This document shows positions 2,577 through 39,716 of a DNA stretch of 64,000 nucleotides, piece by piece (position 1 is the stretch's first letter; every line of letters starts with the position of its first letter). The DNA is from Candidatus Woesearchaeota archaeon (GTDB taxonomy: Archaea; Nanobdellota; Nanobdellia; Woesearchaeales; JAGVYU01). The stretch lies in contig JAZDHV010000006.1 of assembly GCA_043805595.1 (NCBI GenBank), positions 11,724-75,723 on the forward strand. The letters are read 5' to 3'. The translations under genes and the position numbers were made by a program. The notes beneath the pieces were generated by a model. It did not search any database, was not told the DNA's origin, and saw only the letters and a program-made list of their open reading frames with translations.

Positions 2577-3392
2577 ATGGCACAAACAATAATCAGGAGA
2601 GCTAGAAGAGCAAATGACTTAGTTAGTCCAAGGTTTCTGACACAAGTGCCTCAGCGTGATTATATTCTAGAAGGGATCTCAGAACTAGTCAGGATCACAA
2701 CTGAGACCGGCTATGAAGCGGATTTTGATGTCTACAAAAGAGCAAGAACAGAAAAACTTCATATTTCAAAATACATCACTATTGGTGATGAAAATTCAGT
2801 AAGCCTGATATCAGGACTAAACAGGCTATCCTGGGAATATATTGAAAAAATAGGAAAAGACCCTCGATACAAAAGCAATCAAGATGATTTTGAAAGGTTT
2901 GTCAGAAATCATGAGATTGGATTTCAATCACCTATGCCAAAACAAGGCGAAATACCTTATGAAGAATTTGACAGAAGGACAGATTATGCATTATTATCTG
3001 TCCACTCACACCCAGGTGGAGCTGCGCATGCTTCAAGAGAAGACCTGCTTCATCTGAACAATATTAGAAGAATAGATTTTAAAAGAAGGTTAATGAGCAA
3101 CCCAATCAGCATGGTCATTGGAGTATATCAAGACAGCACCAAGACTCATGATGAAGATGAACTGGTAAGAATAATATTCGGCACTGAGCAGTCAGGTGAA
3201 ATAATGCTGTTCCAAGAGAAAAGCGAATGGCCTCATTCAATAAAAACAATAAAAAGGGCTGCGAAGTCATATCTATCTGAAACAGCAGAACAATCTAAAA
3301 AATCATACAATATTGCGAGAGGGCAATATCATGCTGATGAAAAAATGATTGAGGTTCCAGCAGGCTTGCTTGAATTTGGGTTTAGATTCTAA
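2577..3392 (+). CDS. JAB/MPN (JAMM) metallopeptidase-domain protein
   Basis: 271 aa; exact JAMM signature H-S-H-x7-S-x2-D in LSVHSHPGGAAHASRED with upstream Glu. Confidence 0.6.
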   Translation: MAQTIIRRARRANDLVSPRFLTQVPQRDYILEGISELVRITTETGYEADFDVYKRARTEKLHISKYITIGDENSVSLISGLNRLSWEYIEKIGKDPRYKSNQDDFERFVRNHEIGFQSPMPKQGEIPYEEFDRRTDYALLSVHSHPGGAAHASREDLLHLNNIRRIDFKRRLMSNPISMVIGVYQDSTKTHDEDELVRIIFGTEQSGEIMLFQEKSEWPHSIKTIKRAAKSYLSETAEQSKKSYNIARGQYHADEKMIEVPAGLLEFGFRF

Positions 3393-3433: not shown

Positions 3434-4519
3434 TTATTCTATTTTTTTAGCAAAGCCTTGTTTTGTGTCTATAAGAACAAGATCATTGTCTTTCAGAACT
3501 TTTGTAGCAAACTTTGTGCCTATCAAAGCAGGTATCTTGTATTCTCTGCTAAGAATAGCTGCATGGCATGTAACTCCACCTTCATCAGTTATTATTGCTC
3601 CTGCTTTTTTTAGATTTGGAGTTATTAAATCAGTTGTAGTCATCTGAGTAACTAAAACATCACCTTGATTTATCTTGTTCATATCTTCCCTTGTTTTAAT
3701 ATGCTTGACTATTCCCTGATATCTTGCGTCAAAAGTACCTTGGCCTTTTAACTCAGAACTATACACTTCATTTTCAAGATAATGAAGTATTAAAGAGGCA
3801 TTCTCATGCATTGAATACTGTCCATTAGCAAGAATAAAAACACACTTTTGCCTTTCTCTGACTTTTTTGTCAATATCAATTTTATATCCCTTGATAACTT
3901 GTTCAACCTCTTTAGGTGTTAAGAATTTAAGATCATTCACTGTAATTTTTAGCCTATTGGCAATTTCCTTAAACAGAGGCTCTGCTATTTCATGTGTTTC
4001 ATTAAATTTAGATCTTCCTAAAAGCCGCATATTAGCCATAATGTCAACAACTTCTTTTACAAAAATGCTTTTATCATCTTCTATACCTCTTGAGTCTACA
4101 CTGATCAGAAATGTTGGGTAAGCCTGCTTATAGAGAAAGAAATATTTCTTTATTAAGTGAAGCAATTCGATTCTGCTCCTTTTATTCAGGTTTTTAAGGC
4201 TATTGGAGAATTCTATTAAATCACCAAATTTCTCTTTTCCTTCCTCAAGAATCTTATGCATGAAATAATGATCCTGTTCGAGATTATTTTTAATGAATTT
4301 GTCAAGTTCTGAAGAGATTTCATTTCTCCAGAAATGAGAATAAGACATCCCATCCCTTATGGTCAGATAATCTGGATGTTTAATTCCAAATCTTTCTACA
4401 AATTCATTTGTCATTGCTTCATAAACTAAGCAATTCTTCAAGAAATCATTCTTTCTTTCTGCAATTAATTCCCATTTCATTTTAATCAGCAATTTCTGTG
4501 AAAGAATATATTGGAACAA
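3434..4519 (-). CDS. PEP-utilizing enzyme mobile (swivel phosphohistidine) domain protein; PEP synthase / rifampin phosphotransferase-like C-terminal half without ATP-grasp domain
   Basis: 361 aa; C-terminal GGVTCHAAILSREYKIPALIGT matches the conserved phosphohistidine swivel motif. Confidence 0.7.
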   Translation of the reverse strand: MFQYILSQKLLIKMKWELIAERKNDFLKNCLVYEAMTNEFVERFGIKHPDYLTIRDGMSYSHFWRNEISSELDKFIKNNLEQDHYFMHKILEEGKEKFGDLIEFSNSLKNLNKRSRIELLHLIKKYFFLYKQAYPTFLISVDSRGIEDDKSIFVKEVVDIMANMRLLGRSKFNETHEIAEPLFKEIANRLKITVNDLKFLTPKEVEQVIKGYKIDIDKKVRERQKCVFILANGQYSMHENASLILHYLENEVYSSELKGQGTFDARYQGIVKHIKTREDMNKINQGDVLVTQMTTTDLITPNLKKAGAIITDEGGVTCHAAILSREYKIPALIGTKFATKVLKDNDLVLIDTKQGFAKKIE

Positions 4520-5237
4520 CTCCTTTTGAGACTAAATCATCAATATTTGCTTGATTAACCTTATTATGGCGGTCAACTAAATATAAGCTTGGATTCACTC
4601 CAGCTGATTGAAATCCTTGATAGGCTGCATATAAAACAGATGGCTTATCGTCATAGAAAGCCTTAATATCCCTGTCTAATAAAGCTGGGACTCTTGCAAA
4701 AGTCTCTGGGTCATTCTTATCGCCAATCTCTTCTCCAACAAGAAGACCATCATATTGGCAAGTGTTTCCGATTAATAATTCAATTAATTCAATTGAACCT
4801 GATGTTAATAAGTAAACAAGATTTCCTTGTCCTCTGACAAGATTAAATCTTGGAGCGACATCATCATATACTATTTCAGAGGGATCTACTTCTAGTTCTC
4901 CTGCCTTTATAGCCTCGACCCAAGCATAATTCAATAAATTAAAGTCATCCTGAGAAATATTCCCTCTTGTCCTATGGAATTCTCTTATTCTCTCTAAAGC
5001 TTCTGGATCAGTTATATACTTTCCAGCAAGTTCACTAGCAATAAAATCATATCCTTGTCTGAATGGGCCTGTTATGACTCTTCCTACATCATATAGCTCG
5101 ATTCTTGGTTCTTGAGATTCAGATCCTTTTGTTGGATTTTGGTCTACTCTTTGTTCCAAATCTTGCTCTTCATCTCGTTCTCCTTTATCCTCATGTTCTT
5201 CTCTGTCGCCTGTTTGCTCTTCTTCCATTGTCATCAC
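4482..5237 (-). CDS. Hypothetical acidic protein, co-operonic with PEP-utilizer gene (38-nt overlap)
   Basis: 251 aa ORF with Glu/Asp-rich N-terminus; no recognised domain. Confidence 0.4.
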   Translation of the reverse strand: MMTMEEEQTGDREEHEDKGERDEEQDLEQRVDQNPTKGSESQEPRIELYDVGRVITGPFRQGYDFIASELAGKYITDPEALERIREFHRTRGNISQDDFNLLNYAWVEAIKAGELEVDPSEIVYDDVAPRFNLVRGQGNLVYLLTSGSIELIELLIGNTCQYDGLLVGEEIGDKNDPETFARVPALLDRDIKAFYDDKPSVLYAAYQGFQSAGVNPSLYLVDRHNKVNQANIDDLVSKGVVPIYSFTEIAD

Positions 5238-5355
5238 CTAATTAGTTGTCATAACTAAGTTTTCTATGCATTAGAAGTGAATATTGAGTATATTAATATT
5301 TGTTGTAATCATAATGACAACAATGTTTATATACTTGTTAATATTCCAATTAGAT

Positions 5356-6075
5356 ATGATCACAGAAATATTAGGAGAAATTGGATTAAGTGGAACAGAA
5401 GCTAAAGTTTATGTAGCTTTGCTGGAATTAGGATCAGCTTTAGCTGGAGAAATTACTAAAAAGTCTGAAGTGAATAGGACAAATGTTTATGATGCATTGG
5501 AAAGACTAATAAAAAAAGGTCTTGTTACATATGTGATAAGTGCCAACAGAAAAGTGTTTGAGCCTATAAAACCAGAAAGGATAAAAGAAATTCTTAAGGA
5601 AAAAGAAGAAAAGGTTAACTCAATAATGGAAGAATTGAATACTAAGTACATTACAAGCAAAACAAAAGAGCAAGCAACAATATTTAAAGGAAAGATGGGA
5701 ATTAAGTTAATTTTTGAAGATATTCTTAAAGAAGGCAAAATACTTTATGCATATGGAGCTGAAAGCAGATTTGCAGATAACTTTCCATCATACTTTAAAA
5801 TATGGAACAAGAGAAGGGCTAAACTAGGGATTAAAGTAAAGATGCTCTATAATGAAAAAGTAAGGAAAATAAAATTAACAGAGGGATTTAGATTATTAAC
5901 AATGAAATTCCTTCCAAAACAATATGAATTTCCTTCAACAATCCTTATCTATAATGATAAGGTTGTAACAATTGCATGGTCAGATATTCCATTTGGATTT
6001 ATGATTGAAAGCAAAGAAGCTGTAAGAAGCCAGATGAGTTTCTTTCATATTTTATGGAAGACTGCAAAAGAGTAG
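5356..6075 (+). CDS. TrmB-family transcriptional regulator
   Basis: N-terminal wHTH LSGTEAKVYVALLELGSALAGEITKKSEVNRTNVYDALERLIKKGLV typical of TrmB; start taken at internal Met MITEILGEIGL (ORF track begins at 5284). Confidence 0.75.
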   Translation: MITEILGEIGLSGTEAKVYVALLELGSALAGEITKKSEVNRTNVYDALERLIKKGLVTYVISANRKVFEPIKPERIKEILKEKEEKVNSIMEELNTKYITSKTKEQATIFKGKMGIKLIFEDILKEGKILYAYGAESRFADNFPSYFKIWNKRRAKLGIKVKMLYNEKVRKIKLTEGFRLLTMKFLPKQYEFPSTILIYNDKVVTIAWSDIPFGFMIESKEAVRSQMSFFHILWKTAKE

Positions 6076-6171
6076 AAAAGATTATTCTTTTACTATCAGA
6101 ATATCTTTGGTTCTACCAACCCCACAAATCATCATAAAGAAATTAAAGAAAGTGAAGTTTTATTAATTCCT

Positions 6172-6657
6172 CTAATCTCTCTTCATCAATTCCTCTAATT
6201 TCCCAAATTGTTTAGCATACAATGGTAAAACTTCCTCTGTTGAATGGATTTGAGTCATCTTAGGAATTCTCCAGAAACTATCTTCTCCATAAGCATGTTG
6301 TTCTGTAACTTGCAAAGGCTTTGCAGGTTTTCTACTGAGAAATCTTTTTGGTTTAAAATGAGTAGCTAATTCAACTTGGATTTCTCTTGGATAAAGCAGA
6401 AAATCAGTAGACATTTCCCTTCTTGGATCAGTATTTAGAGATTCCATCCTTATTTCACCAGATCTGAATGCATCCACATAGAATAACCACTCTAATTTAT
6501 GATCAAAGCTTTCTTCCAGCAAATAGTTCCTTGGACCATCCCACTGCTTTAAACCAATTGCCCTTAAACCATTTCTATCAAGGTCTGCATATTTTACAGT
6601 TTGCCCTGCTAATATTTCCCTCACAGCATCAATTACTTCTCTATCATTTGTGTACAT
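6172..6657 (-). CDS. Hypothetical protein
   Basis: 161 aa ORF between the two TrmB paralogs, opposite strand; no recognised motif. Confidence 0.4.
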   Translation of the reverse strand: MYTNDREVIDAVREILAGQTVKYADLDRNGLRAIGLKQWDGPRNYLLEESFDHKLEWLFYVDAFRSGEIRMESLNTDPRREMSTDFLLYPREIQVELATHFKPKRFLSRKPAKPLQVTEQHAYGEDSFWRIPKMTQIHSTEEVLPLYAKQFGKLEELMKRD

Positions 6658-6721
6658 TTTATTTTCCTCCTACATGTTTATTTGTAACACATTAGTAACT
6701 ACACATAGTATACTTAAGTTT

Positions 6722-6746
6722 TTGTTGTAATATTATATTACAACAA
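6722..6746. promoter_or_regulatory. Perfect 25-bp palindrome TTGTTGTAATAT-T-ATATTACAACAA in divergent promoter region (candidate TrmB operator)
   Basis: Seen directly, ~40 bp upstream of TrmB paralog start (6785); related TTGTTGT-N10-ACAACAA at 5300-5326 upstream of the other TrmB paralog. Confidence 0.4.
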
Positions 6747-6784
6747 TAATAAAATTTAAATACTGGAAAACAACTGCACTCTGT

Positions 6785-7528
6785 ATGAATCCAAAATTAA
6801 TACTTGAAAACGCAGGATTGGCAGGAAATGAAGTAAAAATCTATCTTGATCTTCTTGGTCTAGGATCTGCTTTGGCAGGAGAAATCACAAAAAAGTCAGG
6901 TATTAATAGGACAAATGTCTATGATGCTTTGGAAAGACTTATAGAAAAAGGCCTTGTCAGCTATGTTATAAAAACAAATAGAAAATATTTTGAAGCTGCT
7001 GAGCCAACTAGAATCACTAAGTTCCTGTCTGAAAAACAGGAAGAGATAGAACAAAAAAAGAAATTAGTAAATTCAATACTTCCTGAATTAAAGGCTAAAA
7101 GAATGCTAAGTAAAGAGCCTCAAGAAGCGACAATTTTTAAAGGCAGGAAAGGAATAAAATCAGTGGCTGAAGATGTCATAAAGACGAAAAAAGAATTACT
7201 TGTTTTTGGAGCAGAAGGCAAGTTTGTAGATTTATTCACACACTATGCAAGGCAATGGCATTTGAAAAGAAAAGAAAACAGAATTCCATTAAAAATTCTT
7301 TTTAATGAAAAAATTAGAAAAAAGAAATCCAAAGAAAAGTTTCCTATCTGTCAAATGCGATATAGCTCAAATATACAAGAGACTCCAGCAACAACATGGA
7401 TCTATGGTGACAAGGTAGCGATAATGGTTTGGGGAGAGCAGCCAATTGCCACTTTGATAAGAAGCAAAGAGGTAGCAAAATCATATAAAGTAAATTTTGA
7501 TCTTTTGTGGGATTTGGCCAAAAAATGA
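6785..7528 (+). CDS. TrmB-family transcriptional regulator (paralog of 5356..6075)
   Basis: N-terminal EVKIYLDLLGLGSALAGEITKKSGINRTNVYDALERLIEKGLV is near-identical to the HTH of the upstream paralog. Confidence 0.75.
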   Translation: MNPKLILENAGLAGNEVKIYLDLLGLGSALAGEITKKSGINRTNVYDALERLIEKGLVSYVIKTNRKYFEAAEPTRITKFLSEKQEEIEQKKKLVNSILPELKAKRMLSKEPQEATIFKGRKGIKSVAEDVIKTKKELLVFGAEGKFVDLFTHYARQWHLKRKENRIPLKILFNEKIRKKKSKEKFPICQMRYSSNIQETPATTWIYGDKVAIMVWGEQPIATLIRSKEVAKSYKVNFDLLWDLAKK

Positions 7529-9447: not shown

Positions 9448-12400
9448 CTATTTCTTAGAATTCTTATCTTTTTTAGAAGATTTATTATCTTTTTCTTTTT
9501 CCTTTTTATTATTATTCTCATCCAAAAAATCAAGGATCTTGTCATTATATTTTACAAACAATATGATGATAAAAACAATGACTAAGCCTGCAATAATATA
9601 ATTGAGATAATCAATGAAAAAAGAGGCTGGTTTGCTTATAATCAAACTGGCACTTTCCTTAATCTTGCCTAAAAAATCATTCAAATCCTCTTTAATTTTC
9701 TCTGAAATAGGAACATCAGGAGCTTTCTTTACAATAAGGAGCACTTCATTGCTCTCAACAACACCTCCCTTGCCATCATCAGCTGTAAATACCACTGTTT
9801 CAGCACCACTAAATCCTGGGTCATGGATTAACTTAGCTATACCAAGTTCATTGTCAATATCAATATTTATATGATCTGTAGACTCAGCTGAATAAACAAG
9901 CTTATCACCATCAGGATCAATGAAATATTGAGAAAGATCTAAGGATCTATTCTCATCAAAATTCCAGACCTGGATGGGAATACCTTTTTCATCAATAATA
10001 GTCTTATTAACAGATAAAATCCTGATCAGATTGTTCAATTCATTGACAGACAGTCGTGTCTTAACAATAATATCAACCATATTCTTTATCAACAAATCAG
10101 CGAACTCATCGTTAGAAAGGATTGCGTTGGATTCAGTGTTGACAACCTTGCCTTCAGCATTATACTTATAACGGCCATCTGATATTGAGCTGAGGATCTC
10201 ATCAGTCCTAAACTCCTCAATTGTTGTAGTGGGTTTCTCAGGTATTGTGACCAATGTTGTTACAATCATCGTTGTTGATGTTATCTCAGCTGAACTCAAT
10301 GCTGTCTCTGCAGTTGGAGTAATCAAAGAAGAGATTGTGTCATAATTATAATAAACCAAGCTGACAATAACAGCTATTATCACTAAAATAAGCAGATATA
10401 TTGGCCATTGGAGATCATCCTCCTTTTTAGGCTTTTTCTCCCTGATTATCTTTTCTTTTGGTTTTTCAGTTATCTTTTTTGGAGCAACAATGACTGTCTT
10501 TTCAACAGGCTTTTCTATTTTTTTTAATTCAATAATAGGCTTTTTCTCCAAAATAACAGGTTTCTCCCTCATCAGACCAGCAATTGCATAATAGCTAAAA
10601 TCAGGAAGTTTTGTCTCAAAATAAAGGAATGAATCATCCTCATCAATGATCTTAGTAGAAATATCAATCCATTGGCGCTTTTCATACCTCTTTATAATAA
10701 TTGATTTTGGATCAATATCTTGATACACAATCCATGATTTCTTAACCCTGAACCTCAGAAGGACATTTGAAAGGTTGTTTTCACTTATATTTTTTGCATC
10801 TATCTCAAAATACCTATAAACATGAGGGGAAGGCCTGATGAAAGTAGGCTTTTTTTTCAAACCTTTGATAGAGATTGATGCATTGCTAATCCTGCTCCTG
10901 ATCCTAAATGATATCTCACCAATACCAATCTTCTCATTCACTGGGATTGTGACATCATCACCAACTGAATATGTTGAGAGTGATTTTTCAAAATAATATG
11001 CACTACTCCTCCTTTTAACATATGAGCGTATAATAATCAAAATAATGACAATTAAAATGCCAATAATAATGTAAGTGAGATTATTCATCAAAAAAAGCAA
11101 GATAAAATTTATTATGCTCCATGCACCAAAAAAGATTGATTTAACAATTCCATATAAAAAACTTAGAATGTTGAGTATTCCAATCTTCTTATGGATATAA
11201 TAAATCAAGGCAATCAATATTGCAAGAAGCACAAGCAAAAACAATAAGGCAGGCCAGATTTTTGGCTCAACAATCTCAGGACCTATCTGCATCTTTTCAT
11301 CTTTTTTTACCTGCTTTTCAACCAGTTTTTTAGGTTCAATATTTTGACCTTTCTTTATTTCCGCTTTTATTGTCTCATCTTTCCTGATCTCATCTTTTTT
11401 TTCTGGTATTACTGGCTTTTCTTTTTTTGGCCACTTTGAAATAAAAGATATTACCTTAATCAGAATTATCAAAAGAACCAGGACAATGATTCCAGCAATG
11501 ATATAGGGGAAATAATCATTAATCATGGTTCTAACAGGTGTTATCACATTGTTGAGTGAGCCTGATAATGTCTGCAAAAATCCTATATTTTCTCCAGATA
11601 AAGTTGTTGATGTTGTTAAAGGCCCACTAGTAGTTGTGACATCTACTAATGATGATGTTGTAGTCTCAATCAAAGTGGTTGTTGTTTCAGCCAAAGTTGT
11701 TGTCTCTACAATCTCTATTGCAGTGGTTGCTGTAACATTTTCATAAGGCAAGAATGGCAACATATTCATGTAATAAAAAGCAGTGACAATTATTGCAATC
11801 AAGATAATCAAGAATACAGGCCAAACAGGAGGTCTTTTCTTTTCCTCTTTTGTATCCTTTAACACTAATTTTTTAACAGGCCCTGCCTTGGCTCTCTTTA
11901 ATGGCTTTTTCTCAACATTTTTTATCAATTCTTTTCTCTTTTTCTCTTGTTCTATTCTCTTTTTCTCCTTTTCTAATCTTTTCTTTTCCCTATTCTTTTT
12001 ATTGAGCTCTTTTTTCCTTGCCCTTTTCACTCTCCATTTGCTGTATCTAACTCTTATTTTTCCAGATGTTTTCCTTGAGAATCTAAGAAGTGGTCTTCTA
12101 AAAATTAGAATTATGATGATTAGTAACAATAAGGTAATTCCTGCCAAGAAAAACCATTTATACAATAAGACAAAATTATAAGCTGATTTAAAGTATCCAA
12201 AAATAGTATCCTTTAATGTACCTATAACACCCTTAATTTTCTCATACAATATCCCAATCTTGGATGTGAGAGGGGGTTCAATTGCAGCCACTTCTGTCGT
12301 TGTCACTTCCTCTACTGTTGCAGCAGTTGTCTCATTTACTGGAACAAACAAAGACTTGAAAAAAGGCGCGATAGGATAAGCCAGAAAGACATAGATCAGG

Positions 12401-14145
12401 ACTGCAGCCACAATCGCAATAACAATAACCAAAATGATATGCCAGATCTCAACCTTGTACTTTTTTCTTGCAACCTCTTCTTTTATAATTTTTTCAGGCT
12501 CTTTTTTAACATCTTTTTTTGGCTCTTTCTTGACCTCTTTTTTGATAACAGACTTTACTTTTTTTACTTTCTCCATTATTTGAGCCTTTTCTGCAATCTT
12601 CTTCAATTTACTCTTTTTAACAATATCCTTTGACAAGGAAAGTATAATCAGGACAACAATCAAAATTATCAAGGCAATAATAAGATAAATCCAGAATATA
12701 GATATAAAGTCAATGATTGCATTTGACTTCTTAAGACTGATTATAAAAGGCTGGACATAAACAATATTGTTGCTGGATTTAACATTTAATTTGACCAGAT
12801 AATTTCCAGGAGGGGTATTTTCAGAAGGTTTTGTCATAATGCTAAAGGATGTTGATTCTGAAGGAGCTAAGGCAACAAATTTCTGCTGTGATGAAATCCA
12901 AGGCTGATCTGTCTCAAGAGACAGTTCATAATCAGCTAATTTATTCCCTGAATTCCTGATAGGAATTGAAGTAATGGATTCAGAATAGCTTACTTTTATC
13001 CTCTTTGATCCCCTGCCAATCTTTGGAATAAAACAATTCTCAATATTGAGAGGAAGAGACAAAGATTTGCTGATCTTCCCTATATCAGATTTGATATCAA
13101 TTGAATAAGTCCTTGAATATTCATCTCCAACAGGAGGCTTGACATTTAGGTATACTAATTGTGACTTGCCTGAACCAATTGAAACCTTATTTGTATCAAG
13201 AGATAAGATATCATCAATTGGAGAAATTTCAATCTCATATGAATTCTCAATCGGACCAGGATTATCAATCTTGACAGGGATTTTTACAGGCAAGGACTCG
13301 CAAATATCATAATCATAACTGATTTCCTTAAAATCATTATTTGATGCTTGAGATTGAGCAGATAAAACTTCACCAAGCTTAACATCATAATCATAACAAT
13401 TGTCCACCTGAAGATCCAGAGGAAATTTTGTAAGGAATTTAGATTGTGTAGCAAGAACTGATGCTTCAATTGAATAATTCCCAACATCTTCACAAGAAGG
13501 ATCAATACTTAAGGTAGTGATCTTACCAGCACCTGGATCAATAATAAGAGGGTTTTGGTCAGTTGCAGAGGCATCATTGAATGAATTGATATAAACCTTA
13601 TATTCTTCCTTGAAAAAGCCAACATTATTGATTTGGATCTCATATTCTGCCTTGTCACAACCGCAGATCTTCTGCGAATTTGTCAAAGGAATAACTTCCA
13701 AGTTCTGGCAATTCTGGATTATTACATTCTGATTTAACTCCTTGACCTCACCAGATGATGATATTATCTGGATTTTATGGCCATATGAGCCTTTATCATA
13801 GAAGCAGGGAACCTTAATATGCTGATATAAATCAATTGACTCTCCAGAATCTAATTTAAAGATATAAGGGGCAATTGTAACCCACTTTGAGATCTCATTA
13901 TTATATATATTTACTTCATAACTTCGAGAATAAATATCATTATTTTCCACTATTATAGTGTTTATTGACTCAATACAAGAGCATGTCCGAATTTCAGCAT
14001 CTGTATATGCATTCATCCTGTTTGTTGCATAAACATCAGAGGTTAAGCTAATCAAAAGAATTATTGACAATAAAAGTATAAGTGTTAAAGTATATTTTAT
14101 GGATTTATTCATATAATACCAACCATTTATGTAATAATCCCCCAA
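9448..14145 (-). CDS. Giant (1565 aa) multi-pass surface protein with alternating Thr-rich, TM and Lys/Glu-rich segments
   Basis: N-terminal signal/TM; at least 8-10 strongly hydrophobic TM helices interleaved with KKE-rich stretches and Thr-rich linkers (TATTAIEIVETTTLAETTTT); C-terminal basic tail. Confidence 0.65.
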   Translation of the reverse strand: MGDYYINGWYYMNKSIKYTLTLILLLSIILLISLTSDVYATNRMNAYTDAEIRTCSCIESINTIIVENNDIYSRSYEVNIYNNEISKWVTIAPYIFKLDSGESIDLYQHIKVPCFYDKGSYGHKIQIISSSGEVKELNQNVIIQNCQNLEVIPLTNSQKICGCDKAEYEIQINNVGFFKEEYKVYINSFNDASATDQNPLIIDPGAGKITTLSIDPSCEDVGNYSIEASVLATQSKFLTKFPLDLQVDNCYDYDVKLGEVLSAQSQASNNDFKEISYDYDICESLPVKIPVKIDNPGPIENSYEIEISPIDDILSLDTNKVSIGSGKSQLVYLNVKPPVGDEYSRTYSIDIKSDIGKISKSLSLPLNIENCFIPKIGRGSKRIKVSYSESITSIPIRNSGNKLADYELSLETDQPWISSQQKFVALAPSESTSFSIMTKPSENTPPGNYLVKLNVKSSNNIVYVQPFIISLKKSNAIIDFISIFWIYLIIALIILIVVLIILSLSKDIVKKSKLKKIAEKAQIMEKVKKVKSVIKKEVKKEPKKDVKKEPEKIIKEEVARKKYKVEIWHIILVIVIAIVAAVLIYVFLAYPIAPFFKSLFVPVNETTAATVEEVTTTEVAAIEPPLTSKIGILYEKIKGVIGTLKDTIFGYFKSAYNFVLLYKWFFLAGITLLLLIIIILIFRRPLLRFSRKTSGKIRVRYSKWRVKRARKKELNKKNREKKRLEKEKKRIEQEKKRKELIKNVEKKPLKRAKAGPVKKLVLKDTKEEKKRPPVWPVFLIILIAIIVTAFYYMNMLPFLPYENVTATTAIEIVETTTLAETTTTLIETTTSSLVDVTTTSGPLTTSTTLSGENIGFLQTLSGSLNNVITPVRTMINDYFPYIIAGIIVLVLLIILIKVISFISKWPKKEKPVIPEKKDEIRKDETIKAEIKKGQNIEPKKLVEKQVKKDEKMQIGPEIVEPKIWPALLFLLVLLAILIALIYYIHKKIGILNILSFLYGIVKSIFFGAWSIINFILLFLMNNLTYIIIGILIVIILIIIRSYVKRRSSAYYFEKSLSTYSVGDDVTIPVNEKIGIGEISFRIRSRISNASISIKGLKKKPTFIRPSPHVYRYFEIDAKNISENNLSNVLLRFRVKKSWIVYQDIDPKSIIIKRYEKRQWIDISTKIIDEDDSFLYFETKLPDFSYYAIAGLMREKPVILEKKPIIELKKIEKPVEKTVIVAPKKITEKPKEKIIREKKPKKEDDLQWPIYLLILVIIAVIVSLVYYNYDTISSLITPTAETALSSAEITSTTMIVTTLVTIPEKPTTTIEEFRTDEILSSISDGRYKYNAEGKVVNTESNAILSNDEFADLLIKNMVDIIVKTRLSVNELNNLIRILSVNKTIIDEKGIPIQVWNFDENRSLDLSQYFIDPDGDKLVYSAESTDHINIDIDNELGIAKLIHDPGFSGAETVVFTADDGKGGVVESNEVLLIVKKAPDVPISEKIKEDLNDFLGKIKESASLIISKPASFFIDYLNYIIAGLVIVFIIILFVKYNDKILDFLDENNNKKEKEKDNKSSKKDKNSKK

Positions 14146-15947: not shown

Positions 15948-18900
15948 TTAATATATTTCTAATTCTCTATGACGGACTCTCCTCAAGTCATCACTTTTTG
16001 TTGAAGCTATAGAAACCCTCACGTCATAAATTCCTGGATCTGCCCAGTCTGGAATCTCTAAGTCAGCAAGTTTCGTCACTGTTGTCTTTGCATCAATACC
16101 AAAAGGACCTAACTTTCTTCTAACTCCAAGTTCAGGAATTGTGTATGTGACTGTAATCTCTTTTATATCATAATAGTCGTTGTTAGTCATTGTAATTACT
16201 GCCTGAACACTGCTTCCTGCCTCAAACTTATCTGAGTATGTTCCGTCGAAACTAATCCTGTCAATAAACAGCTTTCTACGAGGAGATGAAATCGGATCTG
16301 GTATAACTACGTCAATAATAAAATCCTGCAAGTCTGTCAAAAATCCGTCGGAAACCATGATTATCACATGATTTTCACCAGCCTGATCCTCATCTGGATC
16401 CCATTGTATCAATCCAGTAACTGGATCAATTGTCATGTCAGCCGGCCATGTTATTAGTGAATATACAAGAGGATCATTGTCAGGATCTGACGCATCTGAA
16501 TCATACTCATATCTCTCAACAAAATCCATTGGATCATTAATCTCTAAATAAGTTACAGGTGCTGATGTGAAATAAGGCGCATGATTAATCAATGGATCAA
16601 ACAAAACATTTACAACAAATGTATCCTCTGTAAATAATCCATCCGGATCCTCTGCCCTCACAACAGCTGTGCATGAACCGATAAAAGATAAGTCTGGAAC
16701 TATGTCAACATCATCATTGGAGCCAATTGATATTCCACATTGATTGTTGTTTGAAACAGACATCAAGGTGTATGTTAATTCTGAATCTGAATTATCTGGA
16801 TCGTCGGTATAATCATTCAGATTGAAAACATTATCATTCACAGAGTCTTCAAATACATCCTCATCAGGCAATCCGCTTATAACTGGTCCATCATTAATCT
16901 CATCATCGTCAAAATAATCAGTGCAACCTAGGTCATCAGGAAAATCTGTATATGTGTCAAAATCGTTGTCTACAGAATCAGAACACTCAGTATAATCACA
17001 ACCTAAACTATCATCACAAATAAAATAACAATAATCAGTGCCTGTATCAACATCTAAATCACAATAACTATGCTCAGTACCAGCATTCTCACAAATCGGA
17101 GTGTGAGTAGTGGTAACAAAATCAAGACCACCACAAGCAGACTCATCATAAGGAGAACCACAATCAAGATCAGCATAACACAAAACAGGACCATCTGATT
17201 CGTCATCGTCAAAATAATCAGTGCAACCTAGGTCATCAGGAAAATCTGTATATGTGTCAAAATCGTTGTCTACAGAATCAGAACACTCAGTATAATCACA
17301 ACCTAAACTATCATCACAAATAAAACTACAATAATCAGTGCCTGTATCAACATCCTCATCACAATAACTATGCTCAGTACCAGCATTCTCACAAATCGGA
17401 GTGTGAGTAGTGGTAACAAAATCAAGACCACCACAAGCAGACTCATCATAAGGAGAACCACAATCAAGATCAGCATCACAAACAACAACACCATCAGACT
17501 CATCATCATCAAGATATGAATCACAACCAAAATCAGCTGGATAATCTATATCACCATCACCATCATTATCAACACCATCATTACATTCATAAAATTGCCT
17601 TACAACAGTCAAAGTAACAACATTACTGTCTGCTGTCCCACCATTGCCATCATTTGCAGTAAATGTTACAGTCTCAACACCAAAATAACTAGATGGCTGA
17701 GTAAAACTGACAATATGGGAAGTTGGATTGATTGAAACGACAATATTAGGATTGTCTAAAGCAGATGCTGCATATGACAGAGCATCTCCATCTGGATCAG
17801 AAAAATAGTTGTCTAGGTCAAAAGCATTCAAATTTGATGTCCCTTGGTTCCATGTCTCATCAGAAATTGGGTTTACAATTGGATCAAAATTAGGCGGATC
17901 ATTTATAGGTGTAACAGTTACTCTGAAAGTGTCTTCAGAATATAATCCATCTGGATCTGTAACTCGAACAACAGCGTCACAAACACCATTAAAATCTAAT
18001 GCTGGAGCAATGTCAATATTGTCTGAACCATCAATGCTTATTCCACATTGATTGCTGTTTGAAACTGATGTAAGAGAATATATCAATTGTGAATCTGTAT
18101 TATCTGGATCACTAGCAAAATCATTCAAGTTAAAAGCATTAGGCTTTGTTGTGTCTTCTGCAAGAGTCTGATCAGGCAATGAACCAATCACAGGAGCATC
18201 ATTAACAGGAGTGACAGTAACCCTGAAAGTATCTGTATCAAAAGCTCCCAAAGGATCTTCAACCCTAACAGTAACATCACAAATTCCATAAAAATTAAAA
18301 TCAGGATTTATGTCAATATTGTCGCTTCCATCAATAGTAACTCCACATTGATTTCCATTAGTAATAGATGTCAATGAGTAAGCCAATAAAGAGTCAGCAT
18401 GATCTGGATCACCTGCATAATCATTCAAGTTAAATGCGTTATTAATTGATGCATCCTCTGCTAATGTTTGATCAGGCAATCCGCTTATTGTTGGTGCGTC
18501 ATTGACTGGTGTGACAGTAACTGAGATTGAATCAGTATCAGTCAATCCACCTGTATCTTGAACTGTGAATGTGACTATGCCTGTTGAACCACTATATCCC
18601 GGAGCAGGTGTAAAAGTCACAATATGAGTTGTTGGATTGATTGAAACACCAACATTAGGCAATTGATTAGATGTCCATGACAGATCTCCATCAAGGTCTT
18701 CCTCATCCTGGACATAATCATCCAAGTCAAGACTGTTATGGATTGTGTCTTCTGGGAATGAAACATCAGGAATATTAGTTATGATTGGAGGTGTGTTTGC
18801 CTTGTGCATAGCTCTTGAGACAGTCAGGTCTGTATTAGAAATATCAAACTCTCCTTCAATTGGAAGATATAATGGATTTGTAACATCATATGTATAGTGG

Positions 18901-31805: not shown

Positions 31806-32945
31806 ATGGATGTAAAAAGCATCAAGTTTTTGGACAAATATGTCGGCACCTTGGTATGCCTTAAGCTAGGGATACTTAACAAGCTGTTTTCCAGGAAGAA
31901 ATTAAAGGCTGTTGATAGGATATTAGTAATTCAATTATGGGGGATTGGAGAGACAATATTGACTTTGCCTGCAATCAAGGCATTAAGAGAACAATATAAG
32001 GATTCACAGATTGATATTTTGACCACAAAGAGAGCAAAGGATGTTTTTGAAGGACAAGGTTTTATTGATGATATAATTGTGATTGAGACAAATTTGTCGT
32101 CCATATCCAGGTTCATCTCCAAAAATTACAGGAAATATTCATTAGTTGTTGATTTTGAAGAGTATCTAAACATTTCCTCAATCATATCTTTTTTTGTGGG
32201 CAGTTTTAGAGTCGGCTATAAAAATAGGATAAGAGGGATGACTTTGTCTAAGTCAGTCTCTTATAATGACAAACAGCATGTTGTTGAAACTCATCTTGAC
32301 CTGATAAGACTAATTGGATATGACGGGAAAGTGGAAAGATTGGAAAGATTGAGGTATAGTAAGAAAGATAAAAATTATATTGAGATATTATTGGATGATA
32401 AAAAAGTGTCTAAAAATGATTTTTTAGCGGGATTGTTTGCAGGAGCAGCTGAGTCGGCAAAATCAAGGATGTGGATGAAGGAGAATTTTGCTGAGCTTGG
32501 TGACAGGCTAATTGAGGAGAAGAATGCAAAAATTGTGTTATTAGGAAGCTCAGATGATATCAAGTTAAATGATGAAATAATCAGATTGGTCAAGAATAAA
32601 GACAAGATTGATAATCTTGCTGGGAAAACAAGCCTGCAGCAATTGTTTTATCTTGAGGAAAGATGTGATTTAATCATTAGCAATGATTCAGGGCCAATGC
32701 ATATTGGAGCTGCAATGGATACAAAAACAATCGGGTTGTTTGGCCCAAATCTTCCAATCAGATGGAGACCTTTCCAGAAAGACAGTGTTGGACTGTATAA
32801 AGGAGGTATCTGTGAGTTTAGCCCTTGCATAAATGTGCATCTGGGGAAAGTGCCTGAATGCCTTCAGCCAAGTCATAATAACATCTGCATGAAAAATCTG
32901 GAGGTAGAGGATGTCATGAAACATATTGAGAAGTTGAAAAGCTGA
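31806..32945 (+). CDS. GT9 family glycosyltransferase (heptosyltransferase-like)
   Basis: 379 aa; N-terminal ILVIQLWGIGETILTLPAIKAL and C-terminal ISNDSGPMHIGAAMDTKTIGLFGP match GT9 (RfaF/WaaC) signatures. Confidence 0.8.
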   Translation: MDVKSIKFLDKYVGTLVCLKLGILNKLFSRKKLKAVDRILVIQLWGIGETILTLPAIKALREQYKDSQIDILTTKRAKDVFEGQGFIDDIIVIETNLSSISRFISKNYRKYSLVVDFEEYLNISSIISFFVGSFRVGYKNRIRGMTLSKSVSYNDKQHVVETHLDLIRLIGYDGKVERLERLRYSKKDKNYIEILLDDKKVSKNDFLAGLFAGAAESAKSRMWMKENFAELGDRLIEEKNAKIVLLGSSDDIKLNDEIIRLVKNKDKIDNLAGKTSLQQLFYLEERCDLIISNDSGPMHIGAAMDTKTIGLFGPNLPIRWRPFQKDSVGLYKGGICEFSPCINVHLGKVPECLQPSHNNICMKNLEVEDVMKHIEKLKS

Positions 32946-32987
32946 TAGAATACCTGATTTCTATTCTTATATTATTCTATTCTTCAA

Positions 32988-33743: not shown

Positions 33744-33862
33744 TTTAACTTTGATGTATTACCCCCTAACAGTATGATATAGTAATACCTTTTTAATAAT
33801 TTATATTTTCTAAAATATATATCATATAACAATAATGTATTTAAATAAGGTAGAAGAATAGT

Positions 33863-34369: not shown

Positions 34370-34449
34370 TAAAGTCTTATTCTTAAATATGGTAATTGAC
34401 ATACTTCCGAATCTGAGCAAAGGAGATTCAGTAGAACATATATTGAATA

Positions 34450-35448: not shown

Positions 35449-35512
35449 CTAAAAAAGAATGATTGTGGATAAGATATGTTTAAATAAAAATAAATAATCC
35501 TAAATCAATATC

Positions 35513-36097: not shown

Positions 36098-36106
36098 GTT
36101 GTTAAT

Positions 36107-37527: not shown

Positions 37528-37637
37528 AGAAATATTTTCATAAATATAGGCATTAATTTCATCTAAGTTTTCTTAAATATATAACATATCGACCCACATA
37601 TTTTTAAATACAAATTCATTCTTGACAAACTAATAAA

Positions 37638-38567: not shown

Positions 38568-38655
38568 GATTTCTAAGGGTAAATTATACTTATTGCTCTT
38601 TTTGCTCTTTTTTTAAAAAATTTTTTTGTTTTTTGTGTCTAAAAAATTTTTAGGA

Positions 38656-38700: not shown

Positions 38701-38718
38701 TTATTCTTCTTTTATTTT

Positions 38719-39681: not shown

Positions 39682-39716
39682 CTTGCCATAAAGAAAACAT
39701 AAGTATTTAAATATTT

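What the first reader, a model, noticed from the sequence alone, without database searches (positions are those of the whole stretch)
3434..6075. Cassette A: TrmB regulator divergent from acidic protein + stand-alone PEP-utilizing swivel-domain protein
A two-gene operon (4482..5237 overlapping 3434..4519) encodes an acidic unknown protein and a 361-aa protein whose C-terminus is a phosphohistidine swivel domain (GGVTCHAAILSREYKIPALIGT) but which lacks ATP-grasp and PEP/pyruvate-binding domains. A TrmB-type (sugar-responsive) regulator is divergently transcribed. Swivel-domain proteins outside PEP synthase/PPDK are phosphotransfer enzymes of mostly unknown substrate, so this may be a sugar- or PEP-linked phospho-relay regulating the adjacent glycosylation island.
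Basis: partly seen in the sequence, partly recalled or inferred. Interest (0 to 1): 0.6.

Follow-up and report, generated by a model that had tools for sequence, protein, structure and literature searches.

The report
Split dikinase subunit with phosphatase partner
A small archaeon carries a conserved, self-regulated three-gene unit: a DNA-binding regulator, a phosphatase-like protein, and the phosphate-carrying half of an ATP-driven kinase related to the rifampin-inactivating enzyme. Its target molecule is unknown.

Summary
All three genes exist, and the swivel motif is a bona fide PF00391 domain with the catalytic His. No ATP-grasp or PEP-binding domain is present.

Corrections:
- The swivel protein is 348 aa (ATG 4480) and does not overlap its neighbour.
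- The "acidic unknown protein" is a HAD-fold phosphohydrolase-like protein. It has the Asp nucleophile but lacks the Asp+2 general acid.
- The adjacent TrmB is a recent duplicate. The ancestral cassette regulator is the second TrmB, at 6785-7528.

TrmB, a palindromic operator (TTGTTGTAAT-N-ATTACAACAA), a HAD or metallophosphoesterase-like gene, and the short swivel protein recur in about 20 DPANN contigs with unrelated flanks.

The N-terminal domain is homologous to the middle domain of proteins fused to a PPDK_N ATP-grasp, which is the rifampin-phosphotransferase architecture. The protein is therefore best read as the substrate-binding and phosphohistidine-carrier subunit of a split small-molecule dikinase, like HpeH, CreH and PpsA. 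Its ATP-grasp partner would be encoded elsewhere; there is none in the 64-kb window.

The substrate and the phosphatase's target are unknown. The link to the glycosylation island is not supported.

The same module forms large tandem arrays and giant polyproteins in CPR and DPANN genomes.

The parts
3434..4480 (-). 348-aa protein: substrate-binding (N) domain plus phosphohistidine swivel domain. Proposed carrier/specificity subunit of a split RPH/PEPS-type dikinase.
   Evidence: P0001 is 100% identical; 45 near-full-length homologues at 28-55% identity. AF2 pLDDT 90.5. Foldseek PDB top 5 hits are all rifampin phosphotransferase.
3776..4480 (-). N-terminal domain (aa 1-235): alpha/beta plus helical bundle, no Pfam family. 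Family invariants are R9, K15, R42, Y117, Y121, R152. Conserved across the superfamily: E172, R176, E191, R210.
   Evidence: Profile A3 finds 640 representative clusters. Some are fused C-terminal to PPDK_N (P0177, P0209, P0172, P0174). Conservation. The C-terminal ~65 aa align to RPH 700-765.
3440..3754 (-). Phosphohistidine swivel domain (aa 243-347), PF00391.
3563..3565 (-). Codon of catalytic His306 (His319 in the 361-aa ORF numbering) in the motif TDEGGVTCHAAILSRE.
   Evidence: Invariant in A1. Present in 97% of 365 superfamily members. Coordinates.
4482..5228 (-). 248-aa HAD-superfamily protein (HADa) with a genome-specific 43-aa acidic N-terminal insertion. Motif I is D-V-G-R-V: the nucleophile Asp is present and the Asp+2 general acid/base is absent.
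   Evidence: 17 homologues of ~205 aa start at MIELYDVGRV. AF2 pLDDT 87, with the tail disordered. Foldseek top hits are enolase-phosphatase E1 and Utr4, L-2-haloacid dehalogenases and beta-PGM.
5088..5090 (-). Codon of the HAD nucleophile Asp (Asp47 of the 248-aa protein; D50 in alignment A2 numbering), at the end of beta-strand 1.
   Evidence: Invariant Y-D-x-G-R. Strand E46-50 in the model. Coordinates.
5289..5296 (-). TATA-like box (TTAATATA on the minus strand) for the HAD/swivel operon.
   Evidence: Read from the sequence. The same position relative to the palindrome is seen in L001, L003, L008, L010 and L026. Inference only; no transcript data.
5300..5323 (.). Operator 1: palindrome TTGTTGTAAT-CATA-ATGACAACAA between the two divergent TATA boxes.
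   Evidence: The pattern TTGTTGT-N8-13-ACAACA finds two palindromic sites in the window, each matched on both strands (4 matches), against 0 in 100 shuffles. The equivalent site is present in every cassette locus.
5326..5333 (+). TATA box (TTTATATA) 22 nt upstream of the TrmB1 ATG.
   Evidence: Read from the sequence. Inference.
5356..6075 (+). TrmB1: TrmB-family wHTH regulator (239 aa). A lineage-specific paralogue of the cassette regulator.
   Evidence: PF01978 E 5e-18. Only 45-54% identical to the cassette TrmBs of other genomes.
6172..6657 (-). 161-aa orphan ORF lying between the two operator+TrmB copies.
   Evidence: No Pfam or NCBIfam hit. No homologue in any fetched locus.
6722..6746 (.). 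Operator 2: perfect palindrome TTGTTGTAATAT-T-ATATTACAACAA upstream of TrmB2.
6785..7528 (+). TrmB2 (247 aa): orthologue of the regulator that sits divergently next to the HAD/swivel operon in all other genomes.
   Evidence: 64-72% identical to the TrmBs of L001, L003, L004 and L005. PF01978 E 3e-15.

Best explanation
The region is a self-contained, TrmB-controlled cassette. Its enzymatic core is the carrier and specificity subunit of a split ATP-dependent dikinase of the rifampin-phosphotransferase / phenylphosphate-synthase kind, co-transcribed with a phosphohydrolase.

Proposed mechanism:
1. A stand-alone PPDK_N-type ATP-grasp protein, encoded outside this window, uses ATP to phosphorylate His306 of the C-terminal swivel domain (inferred).
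2. The swivel domain docks on its own 230-aa N-terminal domain. That domain binds a so far unknown, probably small-molecule, substrate and receives the phosphoryl group (inferred by homology).
3. The upstream HAD-fold protein removes a phosphoryl group again. In two genomes a metallophosphoesterase-like protein takes its place. The target is either the phosphorylated product or a derivative of it, as in the Hpe pathway, or the phosphohistidine itself (inferred; the two are not distinguishable here).
4. A TrmB-family dimer binds the palindrome TTGTTGTAAT-N-ATTACAACAA, which lies 2-3 nt from each of two divergent TATA boxes. It thereby controls both its own gene and the operon (operator conservation is shown; binding and its sign are inferred).

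Shown here: domain composition, folds, catalytic residues, gene order, operator conservation, and fusion or adjacency to ATP-grasp in relatives.
Inferred: the in-trans ATP-grasp, the direction of phosphoryl flow, and the substrate.
For: Swivel domain and catalytic His:
- PF00391 with the catalytic His, closest to PEP synthase swivels.
- His306 is invariant in the family and present in 97% of 365 superfamily members.

N-domain as the middle domain of an RPH-like dikinase:
- Its profile hits 640 representative clusters.
- In P0177 (687 aa), P0209 (656 aa), P0172 and P0174 it lies between a full PPDK_N (Pfam E 1e-82 to 1e-100) and the swivel, which is the RPH three-domain order.
- In L007, L023, L024 and L043 a stand-alone 315-330-aa PPDK_N gene directly precedes such genes.
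- Paralogues within a locus share 54.5% identity in the swivel but only 16% in the N-domain, as expected of a specificity domain.

Published precedent:
- Two-component dikinases HpeHI, CreHI and PpsAB have exactly this split, and in the Hpe pathway the phosphate is later removed (PMC12167813).
- RPH domain limits and mechanism: PMC4844700.

Phosphohydrolase partner:
- HAD fold with motifs I-IV.
- It is replaced in L003 and L008 by a family with metallophosphoesterase motifs; 4 of 11 members give weak Pfam Metallophos hits.
- Only PPDK_N, never a phosphatase, is found fused to the module.

Cassette conservation:
- Window, L001/2, L003-5, a JGI contig, L008, L010, L026, L046, L085, L086 and L088-L092.
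- The operator is restricted to that intergenic region.
Against: - No PPDK_N gene is present anywhere in the 64-kb window.
- None lies within 5-10 kb of the cassette in L001, L003, L005, L008, L026, L046 or L085. L004 has only a canonical PEP synthase next door.
- Whether this genome has an ATP-grasp partner at all could not be checked. The MAG is not in the contig index.
- The N-domain (230 aa) is half the size of the RIF-binding domain (about 430 aa). Only its last ~65 residues align by sequence, and the RPH catalytic Arg-Glu/Lys block could not be mapped.
- A kinase plus a phosphatase with no intervening enzyme looks futile unless other genes take part.
- The HAD protein lacks the Asp+2 general acid expected of an ordinary phosphomonoesterase.
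Confidence: 0.55

Rival explanations
1. Direct protein-to-protein phosphotransfer. The HAD-like protein is the dedicated partner of the swivel phosphohistidine. It would act either as a phosphohistidine phosphatase (an eraser that resets the carrier) or as a His-to-Asp phospho-acceptor that keeps a long-lived aspartyl-phosphate.
For: - All HAD-like families found next to swivel modules lack the Asp+2 general acid/base. HADa has DVGRV; HADb (window 47464-48339) has DFTGV; HADc has DSAGV, DCYGL, DISDV and similar. This suits good leaving groups such as P-N bonds.
- From my own knowledge, not checked here: the HAD enzyme LHPP, a phospho-Lys/His phosphatase, has DISGV.
- In CPR arrays one phosphatase-type gene (His_Phos_1-like in 10 loci, LMWPc-like in 3, SixA-like RHG proteins in 4) serves 2-10 different swivel proteins. 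That fits a target common to all of them, the conserved swivel domain.
- From my own knowledge, not checked here: SixA, PGAM5, YwlE and PP1/2A hydrolyse P-N bonds.
- Charges are complementary: HADa family pI 4.3-6.0, swivel proteins pI 8.5-9.2.
- The genes are translationally coupled.
Against: - A metallophosphoesterase-like protein replaces HAD in L003 and L008. It has no covalent phospho-enzyme intermediate, which argues against a His-to-Asp relay, though not against a phosphohistidine phosphatase.
- No HAD-swivel fusion was found among 277 proteins.
- No complex prediction could be run.
- The motif-I reading for HADb and HADc is from sequence only.
Confidence: 0.2
2. ATP-grasp-independent phosphotransferase. 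The 348-aa protein works without any ATP-grasp, shuttling a phosphoryl group via His306 between a phosphorylated metabolite and an acceptor. The HAD or MPE enzyme would make or consume one of these compounds. Alternatively the flow runs in reverse, from a metabolite phosphate to His.
For: - No PPDK_N lies in the window or near any cassette copy.
- HpeH alone catalyses phosphotransfer from 4-phosphoacetophenone to acetovanillone (PMC12167813).
- Pta-like (acetyl-phosphate-forming) genes sit next to swivel arrays in 5 DPANN loci. The Pta assignment comes from reading the sequence only.
Against: - All fusions and many adjacent genes in relatives point to PPDK_N as the loader.
- No candidate donor-binding domain was identified.
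- In the characterised systems, phosphate exchange without ATP is a side reaction.
Confidence: 0.1
3. One reading: a PEP- or sugar-linked phospho-relay that regulates the adjacent glycosylation island.
For: A TrmB-family regulator is present. Glycosyltransferase genes exist in the same window.
Against: - The glycosylation genes are at 31.8-45.8 kb, 27 kb or more away, separated by large surface-protein genes.
- In roughly 20 other contigs the cassette is flanked by unrelated genes: purine biosynthesis, ribosomal proteins, RNA polymerase, redox genes.
- There is no PEP-binding domain.
- No TrmB sugar-binding domain was detected.
Confidence: 0.03
4. A decaying fragment of a PEP synthase gene, with no function of its own.
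For: The swivel domain is 46-48% identical to that of archaeal PEP synthases.
Against: - 45 full-length homologues with 20 invariant and 44 nearly invariant columns.
- A confident model (pLDDT 90.5).
- Conserved operon, regulator and operator.
- The N-domain is unrelated to the PEPS N- or C-domains.
Confidence: 0.02

Closest known systems
Two-component small-molecule dikinases: HpeHI (Rhodococcus), CreHI (Corynebacterium), phenylphosphate synthase PpsAB (Thauera/Aromatoleum)
   Same: The enzyme is split into an ATP-grasp component and a component carrying the substrate-binding domain followed by a C-terminal His swivel domain. Phosphate is delivered via phosphohistidine. In the Hpe pathway the phosphate is later removed (PMC12167813). 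In relatives of the window protein, the ATP-grasp is a separate adjacent gene (L007, L023, L024, L043).
   Different: - The window protein is about half the size of HpeH (348 aa against 71 kDa).
- No ATP-grasp gene is adjacent or anywhere in the 64 kb.
- The operon partner is a HAD or metallophosphoesterase-like protein, not a carboxylase or oxygenase pathway.
- The host is a DPANN archaeon with no aromatic catabolism context.
- The regulator is of TrmB type.
- The substrate is unknown.
Rifampin phosphotransferase (RPH-Lm; PDB 5fbt, 5hv1, 5fbs)
   Same: It is the best structural match for the whole model. Sequence alignment covers the end of the RIF-binding domain plus the swivel domain, RPH 700-865. 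Fused relatives have the same domain order: ATP-grasp, middle domain, swivel.
   Different: - The ATP-grasp is not in the polypeptide.
- The middle domain is 230 aa against about 430 aa.
- RIF-contacting residues and the catalytic Arg666/Glu667 block were not identifiable.
- NCBIfam RPH models score 35-44 bits against cut-offs of 999-1700.
PEP synthase / pyruvate phosphate dikinase
   Same: The swivel domain is most similar in sequence to that of archaeal PEP synthases, with the same TCH motif.
   Different: It lacks both catalytic domains, PPDK_N and PEP-utilizers_C. The N-domain is unrelated.
HAD superfamily, C1-cap members (enolase-phosphatase E1/Utr4, L-2-haloacid dehalogenase, beta-phosphoglucomutase)
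   Same: Same fold (Foldseek E 2e-9 to 1e-5). Nucleophile Asp, motif II Thr-Ser, motif III Lys and motif IV Asp-Asp are all invariant.
   Different: Motif I is D-V-G-R-V, with no Asp/Glu at +2. TIGR01691 scores 14.5 bits against a 128-bit cut-off. The family is restricted to DPANN archaea and always sits next to the swivel gene.
TrmB / TrmBL transcription regulators of Thermococcales and haloarchaea
   Same: N-terminal TrmB wHTH (PF01978). A palindromic operator next to the BRE/TATA region. Divergent autoregulated arrangement.
   Different: The proteins are 239-247 aa against about 340 aa. No sugar-binding C-domain was detected. NCBIfam TrmB, TrmBL1 and TrmBL2 models score 30-48 bits against cut-offs of 500-650. 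The operator sequence differs from the TGM motif (TATCAC-N5-GTGATA, quoted from my own knowledge).

Membership tests
PEP synthase / PPDK (canonical dikinases) | N-terminal PPDK_N ATP-grasp nucleotide-binding domain in the same polypeptide | tested here: not met
   No PF01326 at E<=0.1. My own PPDK_N HMM and tblastn with a PEPS find none in the protein or in the 64-kb window.
PEP synthase / PPDK (canonical dikinases) | C-terminal PEP/pyruvate-binding TIM barrel (PF02896) | tested here: not met
   Absent in Pfam and NCBIfam scans. The protein ends 5 residues after the swivel domain.
PEP synthase / PPDK (canonical dikinases) | Swivel domain with catalytic His in a T-x-H motif | tested here: met
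   PF00391 E 3.8e-21. TCH with His306 is invariant.
RPH-type small-molecule dikinase superfamily | Domain order ATP-grasp, substrate-binding domain, C-terminal swivel | tested here: inconclusive
   The window protein has only the last two domains. Homologues of its N-domain occur in exactly this order behind PPDK_N (P0177, P0209, P0172, P0174).
RPH-type small-molecule dikinase superfamily | Middle domain homologous to the RIF-binding domain | tested here: inconclusive
RPH-type small-molecule dikinase superfamily | Catalytic Arg-Glu/Lys block of the substrate domain (RPH Arg666/Glu667; PMC4844700) | not tested
   No residue-level structural alignment was available. Superfamily-conserved E172, R176, E191 and R210 are candidates but are unmapped.
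Two-component dikinases (HpeHI/CreHI/PpsAB) | A separate ATP-grasp component, required together with the swivel component for ATP-dependent phosphorylation | not testable with these tools
   None in the window. The rest of the MAG could not be reached. An adjacent PPDK_N is seen in relatives.
Two-component dikinases (HpeHI/CreHI/PpsAB) | A component made of a substrate-binding domain followed by a swivel domain with an essential His | tested here: met
   Architecture and invariant His. The essentiality of the His was not tested.
HAD superfamily | Rossmannoid HAD fold with a cap | tested here: met
   AF2 pLDDT 87. 66 PDB matches at E<=1e-3; those listed are HAD-superfamily proteins or engineered derivatives of them.
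HAD superfamily | Motif I nucleophile Asp at the end of strand 1; motif II Ser/Thr; motif III Lys; motif IV acidic pair | tested here: met
   D50, T145/S146, K174 and D196/D197 are invariant in 17 sequences. The strand positions agree with the model.
HAD superfamily (phosphomonoesterase subclass) | Asp+2 general acid/base (DxDxT/V) | tested here: not met
   Position +2 is an invariant Gly (D-V/M-G-R).
Enolase-phosphatase E1 (TIGR01691) | Score above the equivalog cut-off | tested here: not met
   14.5 bits against a cut-off of 128.1.
TrmB family regulators | N-terminal TrmB winged helix-turn-helix | tested here: met
   PF01978 E 5e-18 (TrmB1) and 3e-15 (TrmB2).
TrmB family regulators (sugar-sensing TrmB/TrmBL1) | C-terminal sugar-binding domain and an equivalog-level match | tested here: not met
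   No C-terminal TrmB domain at E<=0.1. NCBIfam scores are 32-48 bits against cut-offs of 500-650, and the matches cover only the N-terminal half.
Metallophosphoesterases (alternative partner in L003/L008) | DxH, GDxxDR, GNH[DE], H and GHxH metal-binding motifs, plus a Pfam Metallophos match | tested here: inconclusive
   D19-x-H21, G90-D91...R96, G173-N-A-D176, H290 and H325-G-H-T-H329 are invariant or nearly invariant in 11 sequences. Only 4 of 11 give weak PF00149 hits, best E 0.002. There is no PDB sequence match.

The most novel reading that the evidence does not exclude
The Asp+2-less HAD protein could be a dedicated partner of the swivel phosphohistidine. The pair would then form a previously unrecognised His/Asp phosphotransfer couple, unrelated to histidine-kinase/receiver systems and to the PTS. 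More broadly, CPR and DPANN organisms may use one ATP-grasp "writer", one phosphatase-fold "eraser" and many interchangeable "specificity domain plus swivel" carriers, present as arrays of up to 16 genes or as 2,500-4,800-aa polyproteins. This would be a modular phosphorylation machine acting on many scavenged or hostile compounds.
Probability: 0.15. Interest if true: 0.8.

Novelty: new variant of a known kind. Interest (0 to 1): 0.55.

Why it matters
DPANN archaea and CPR bacteria have tiny genomes, and most of their lineage-specific genes have no assigned role. This work places a conserved Woesearchaeota/Nanoarchaeota cassette in the RPH / phenylphosphate-synthase class of phosphohistidine-swivel dikinases. 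It also defines the cassette's regulator and operator.

The same "variable domain plus swivel" module turns out to be one of the most expanded gene families around these loci. I counted 304 modules in 84 loci, including giant polyproteins with a single ATP-grasp.

If the substrates are antibiotics or host metabolites, this would be a major and unrecognised detoxification or salvage system of episymbionts. If the phosphatase partners act on the phosphohistidine, it would be a new kind of writer/eraser phosphocarrier system.

The cassette is small, self-contained and has a clear operator, so it is a tractable entry point for biochemistry.

Tried and rejected
1. **Known-domain test for the N-terminus.** I tested whether it is a known PPS/PPDK domain using Pfam, NCBIfam, PDB phmmer and a PDB profile search. 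Only the swivel matches.
3. **ATP-grasp in the window.** I searched with tblastn using a PEPS and with my own PPDK_N HMM. None was found.
4. **Reaching the rest of this MAG.** Looking up window proteins in the contig index returned "not on record" twice. The presence of PPDK_N elsewhere in the genome therefore stays open.
5. **Fusions.** I looked for phosphatase-swivel fusions among 277 fetched proteins. There were none, only PPDK_N fusions.
6. **Partner gene in L003/L008.** Pfam on single sequences and PDB profile searches found nothing. Only the family-wide scan gave weak Metallophos hits.
7. **AFDB Foldseek.** The library was unavailable.
8. **Defence systems.** PADLOC gave no hit beyond HTH similarity.
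9. **RNA features.** Rfam and tRNA scans of the window found nothing.
10. **Literature.** Four searches found no description of this cassette or of the CPR/DPANN swivel arrays in the held library.
11. **Cassette B operator.** The cassette A palindrome is not present upstream of cassette B, and no convincing alternative palindrome was found there.
12. **ORF161.** It has no homologue in any locus.

Full report
**1. Observation**

The three ORFs are present as described. The window comes from a Candidatus Woesearchaeota MAG: P0001 and P0121 are 100% identical NCBI proteins on a 99,375-bp contig.

Pfam finds a single domain in the 361-aa ORF. It is the PEP-utilizers mobile (swivel) domain at aa 284-355, E 3.8e-21. 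There is no PPDK_N and no PEP-utilizers_C. NCBIfam models of PEP synthase, RPH, PigC/RedH, pyruvate kinase and EI all match only that segment and score far below their cut-offs. The divergent gene has a TrmB wHTH (E 5e-18).

Gene boundaries need three corrections:
- 45 homologues and the NCBI call start the swivel protein at MKWE (ATG 4480; 348 aa). The HAD stop TAA (4482-4484) is then followed after one base by that ATG, so there is no 38-nt overlap.
- The upstream gene starts at ATG 5228, behind a GGTGAT Shine-Dalgarno (248 aa).
- TrmB1 starts at ATG 5356. The longer TTG ORF would run through the operator and TATA box.

**2. The swivel protein**

An AlphaFold2 model built on 45 homologues is confident (pLDDT 90.5, pTM 0.82). 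Residues 243-347 form the swivel domain, with the motif TDEGGVTCH306AAILSRE. His306 is invariant in the family and present in 97% of 365 superfamily members.

- Foldseek ranks 1-5 are all RPH, at E about 1e-9 with 265-438 aligned columns.
- The sequence alignment runs from RPH residue 700, the end of the RIF-binding domain, to 865.
- RPH domain limits are ATP-grasp 1-314, RIF-binding 327-754 and swivel 767-865 (PMC4844700).

**3. What the N-domain is**

I searched a profile of the N-domain alone (A3) against 1.84 billion representative proteins. It finds 640 clusters at E<=1e-3.

- Most hits are 440-530-aa CPR/DPANN proteins. They match in two stretches, so they carry a roughly 130-aa insertion, and they end in a swivel domain.
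- Several hits are fusions. P0177 (687 aa) and P0209 (656 aa) have a full PPDK_N ATP-grasp (Pfam E 1e-100 and 2e-82), then the N-domain homologue, then the swivel. P0172 (1462 aa) and P0174 (1179 aa) have one PPDK_N followed by two or more such modules.
- In L007 a stand-alone 322-aa PPDK_N gene overlaps the start of the first of four swivel genes. L023, L024 and L043 show the same arrangement.

The window protein is therefore the middle-plus-swivel part of an RPH-type three-domain dikinase, encoded without its ATP-grasp. This is exactly the split described for HpeHI, CreHI and PpsAB. In those enzymes one component is the ATP-grasp and the other carries the substrate-binding and swivel domains (PMC12167813).

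Across the superfamily the swivel is highly conserved. The N-domain keeps only E172, R176, E191 and R210. Paralogues in one locus share 54.5% identity in the swivel but 16% in the N-domain. That is the pattern expected of a constant phosphocarrier joined to a variable specificity domain.

**4. The "acidic unknown protein"**

It has 17 homologues of about 205 aa, all starting MIELYDVGRV. The 43-residue acidic stretch after the initiator Met is an insertion unique to this genome and is predicted to be disordered.

The model (pLDDT 87) is a HAD fold with a C1-type cap. Foldseek returns enolase-phosphatase E1, Utr4, L-2-haloacid dehalogenases and beta-phosphoglucomutase (E 2e-9 to 1e-5).

The following are invariant and sit where the model predicts (A2 numbering):
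- motif I Asp50, at the end of strand 1
- motif II Thr145-Ser146
- motif III Lys174
- motif IV Asp196-Asp197

The Asp+2 general acid/base is replaced by an invariant Gly, giving D-V/M-G-R. So the protein can form an aspartyl-phosphate but is not a standard phosphomonoesterase. The missing general acid fits substrates with good leaving groups, such as phosphoramidates or acyl, enol and aryl phosphates. That last point is an inference from HAD enzymology, not tested here.

**5. Regulator and operator**

The TrmB next to the operon in other genomes (247 aa) is 64-72% identical to the window's second TrmB (6785-7528). It is only 45-54% identical to TrmB1.

The palindrome TTGTTGTAAT-N4/5-ATTACAACAA lies in the divergent intergenic region of every cassette locus. 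In the window it occurs twice, at 5300-5323 and 6722-6746, against 0 matches in 100 shuffles. In 1.24 Mb of fetched loci the exact core TGTTGT-N-ACAACA occurs 9 times, always at that position. L026 has a one-mismatch variant, and 9 further sites lie in loci L085-L094.

In the window, operator 1 lies 3 nt from a TATA-like box for the operon (5289-5296, minus strand) and 2 nt from a TTTATATA box 22 nt upstream of the TrmB1 ATG. This is a classic archaeal autoregulated divergent promoter. Whether it represses or activates cannot be told from sequence.

The window lineage duplicated the "operator plus TrmB" unit and acquired an orphan 161-aa ORF between the copies.

No TrmB sugar-binding domain is detectable, so "sugar-responsive" is unproven.

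**6. Conservation of the cassette**

Searching from the swivel side, TrmB(-) / partner(+) / short swivel(+) is present in L001/L002, L003, L004, L005, a 517-kb JGI contig, L008, L010, L026 and L046. L009 lacks both TrmB and HAD.

Searching from the HAD side, it is present in L085, L086 and L088-L092. The one exception is L087, where a different ORF follows the HAD gene.

Flanking genes differ everywhere. They include purine biosynthesis, rubrerythrin/FUR, ribosomal protein S15, RNA polymerase and VIT1, so the cassette is an autonomous unit.

In L003 and L008 the HAD gene is replaced by a 330-360-aa family. That family has conserved DxH, GD...R, GNxD, H and HGHTH motifs, and 4 of 11 members give weak Pfam Metallophos matches. 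Displacement by another phosphoesterase fold suggests that phosphoester hydrolysis is the required activity.

**7. Mechanism**

The best-supported model (confidence 0.55) has four steps:
- An ATP-grasp subunit encoded elsewhere charges His306.
- The swivel delivers the phosphoryl group to a substrate held by the N-domain.
- The HAD or MPE protein later removes a phosphoryl group.
- TrmB2 and TrmB1 control expression through the palindrome.

Domain identities, catalytic residues, linkage and operator are shown here. The in-trans ATP-grasp, the substrate and the phosphatase's target are inferred.

The main weakness is that no PPDK_N lies in the 64-kb window or near any cassette copy. The rest of the MAG could not be reached.

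Kinase-plus-phosphatase logic is not necessarily futile. In the Hpe pathway the phosphate is a transient handle that is removed later. From my own knowledge, the same holds for the Cre pathway, and plant glucan-water dikinase works with the SEX4 phosphatase. Here, however, no intervening enzyme is encoded in the cassette.

**8. Rivals**

(a) The HAD protein acts on the phosphohistidine itself, as an eraser or as a His-to-Asp acceptor (confidence 0.2).
- In favour: every HAD-like family found beside swivel modules lacks Asp+2. HADa has DVGRV, HADb has DFTGV, and HADc has DSAGV, DCYGL or DISDV.
- In favour: in CPR arrays a single phosphatase-type gene accompanies 2-10 different swivel proteins. 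The types seen are His_Phos_1-like, LMWPc-like and SixA-like. A single phosphatase serving many carriers fits a shared target.
- In favour: the pI values are complementary.
- Against a covalent relay: the metallophosphoesterase replacement.
- Against direct pairing: the absence of phosphatase fusions.

(b) ATP-grasp-independent transphosphorylation (0.1). HpeH alone can do this.

It is contradicted by distance and by non-conserved context.

(d) A gene remnant (0.02). It is contradicted by conservation.

**9. Comparison with known systems and novelty**

The protein works like the HpeH/CreH/PpsA component of two-component dikinases and like the C-terminal two-thirds of RPH.

It fails membership of PEP synthase/PPDK, because two of the three domains are absent. 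It scores far below all NCBIfam equivalogs. Membership of the RPH superfamily is supported by architecture in fused relatives and by structural ranking. It is not yet supported at the level of catalytic residues in the middle domain.

Four literature searches found no description of the following:
- the minimal 230-aa middle domain
- the obligatory HAD or MPE partner
- the TrmB-type control with a defined operator
- the DPANN restriction

I classify it as a new variant of a known kind.

**10. Wider context seen on the way**

The same window contains a second, paralogous cassette with identical logic:
- TrmB3 at 46154-46912(-)
- a HAD-like protein at 47464-48339(+)
- a 485-aa long-form swivel protein at 48314-49771(+)

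In 84 loci from CPR and DPANN genomes I counted 304 swivel modules. These include tandem arrays, with 16 consecutive genes in L060. They also include single ORFs of 4768 aa (L062; PPDK_N plus 10 swivels), 3761 aa (L066) and 2502 aa (L067). This expansion is the more surprising finding and deserves its own study.

Noticed in passing
window 46154-49771: A second, paralogous cassette with the same logic. It has TrmB3 at 46154-46912(-), a 550-nt intergenic region, an acidic HAD-like protein at 47464-48339(+) (weak PF12710; motif I read as DFTGV; acidic C-terminal tail), and an overlapping 485-aa long-form swivel protein at 48314-49771(+). It lacks the cassette A palindrome. It lies next to the glycosylation genes.
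   Followed up: partly
window 47917-48000: A perfect 42-nt tandem duplication inside the cassette B HAD-like gene. It encodes ELEYDSDGRIIGVK twice. This is either a very recent in-frame duplication or an assembly artefact.
   Followed up: no
window 5284-7528: The operator-plus-TrmB unit is duplicated in this lineage (operators at 5300-5323 and 6722-6746; TrmB1 and TrmB2 are 48-49% identical). An orphan 161-aa ORF (6172-6657, minus strand) with no detectable homologue lies between the copies.
   Followed up: partly
L060 222-19893; L020; L016; L013; L047; L068: Tandem arrays of 8-16 consecutive, co-directional genes, each encoding a variable N-domain plus a conserved swivel domain, in CPR and DPANN genomes. 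Paralogues share about 54% identity in the swivel but about 16% in the N-domain.
   Followed up: partly
L062 4307-18613; L066 7520-18805; L067 3-7511; L012; L042; L083: Giant single ORFs (4768, 3761 and 2502 aa, among others) made of one N-terminal PPDK_N ATP-grasp followed by 5-10 swivel modules. One ATP-loading domain apparently serves many carrier/specificity modules.
   Followed up: no
L006 6930-7859; L017, L031, L035, L040, L041, L059, L067, L072, L075; L004 294-944; L032; L062: A single phosphatase-type gene is embedded in many swivel arrays. It is a His_Phos_1-like protein of about 300 aa in 10 loci and LMWPc-like in 3. One search also found SixA-like RHG proteins of about 190 aa in 4 loci and HD-motif proteins in 3.
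   Followed up: partly
L013 10651-11838; L022 7867-8469; L045 3786-4379; L050 6253-6864; L071 11508-12119: A third HAD-like family of about 200 aa lies next to swivel arrays. Its motif I reads DSAGV, DCYGL, DMSDV, DLYGI or DISDV. Like the two HAD-like proteins in the window, none has the Asp+2 general acid.
   Followed up: no
L045 7326-8315; L055 54-650; L070 1917-2891; L076 8866-9810; L077 6459-7460: Phosphotransacetylase-like ORFs (identified by reading the sequence only) sit beside swivel arrays in five DPANN loci. This hints at acetyl phosphate as a possible phospho-donor or product.
   Followed up: no
L003 4899-5981; L008 4832-5818: In two Woesearchaeota genomes the HAD gene of the cassette is replaced by a divergent metallophosphoesterase-like family (11 members found). 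This looks like non-orthologous displacement of the phosphatase partner.
   Followed up: yes
L004 1-4425: In one Woesearchaeota contig a canonical 756-aa PEP synthase converges on the cassette's TrmB gene. Just upstream lies another pair: a 478-aa swivel protein plus an LMWPc-type phosphatase.
   Followed up: no
window 31806-45811: Glycosylation and envelope genes: GT9 heptosyltransferase-like, PfkB kinase, GT2, LPG_synthase_TM and a YfhO-like protein. They are 27 kb from cassette A and are preceded by very large surface or membrane proteins (9448-14145, 1565 aa; 15948-20201, 1417 aa).
   Followed up: partly
L013, L014, L016, L046, L050, L060, L061, L071, L079: Contigs labelled "uncultured Gammaproteobacteria" or "Methanosarcinales" carry CPR/DPANN-type swivel arrays or the DPANN cassette. 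The taxonomic labels of these bins look doubtful.
   Followed up: no
window 2577-3392: A 271-aa protein immediately downstream of the cassette gives a sub-threshold Prok-JAB hit (24.1 bits against a cut-off of 25). It is not conserved next to the cassette elsewhere.
   Followed up: no
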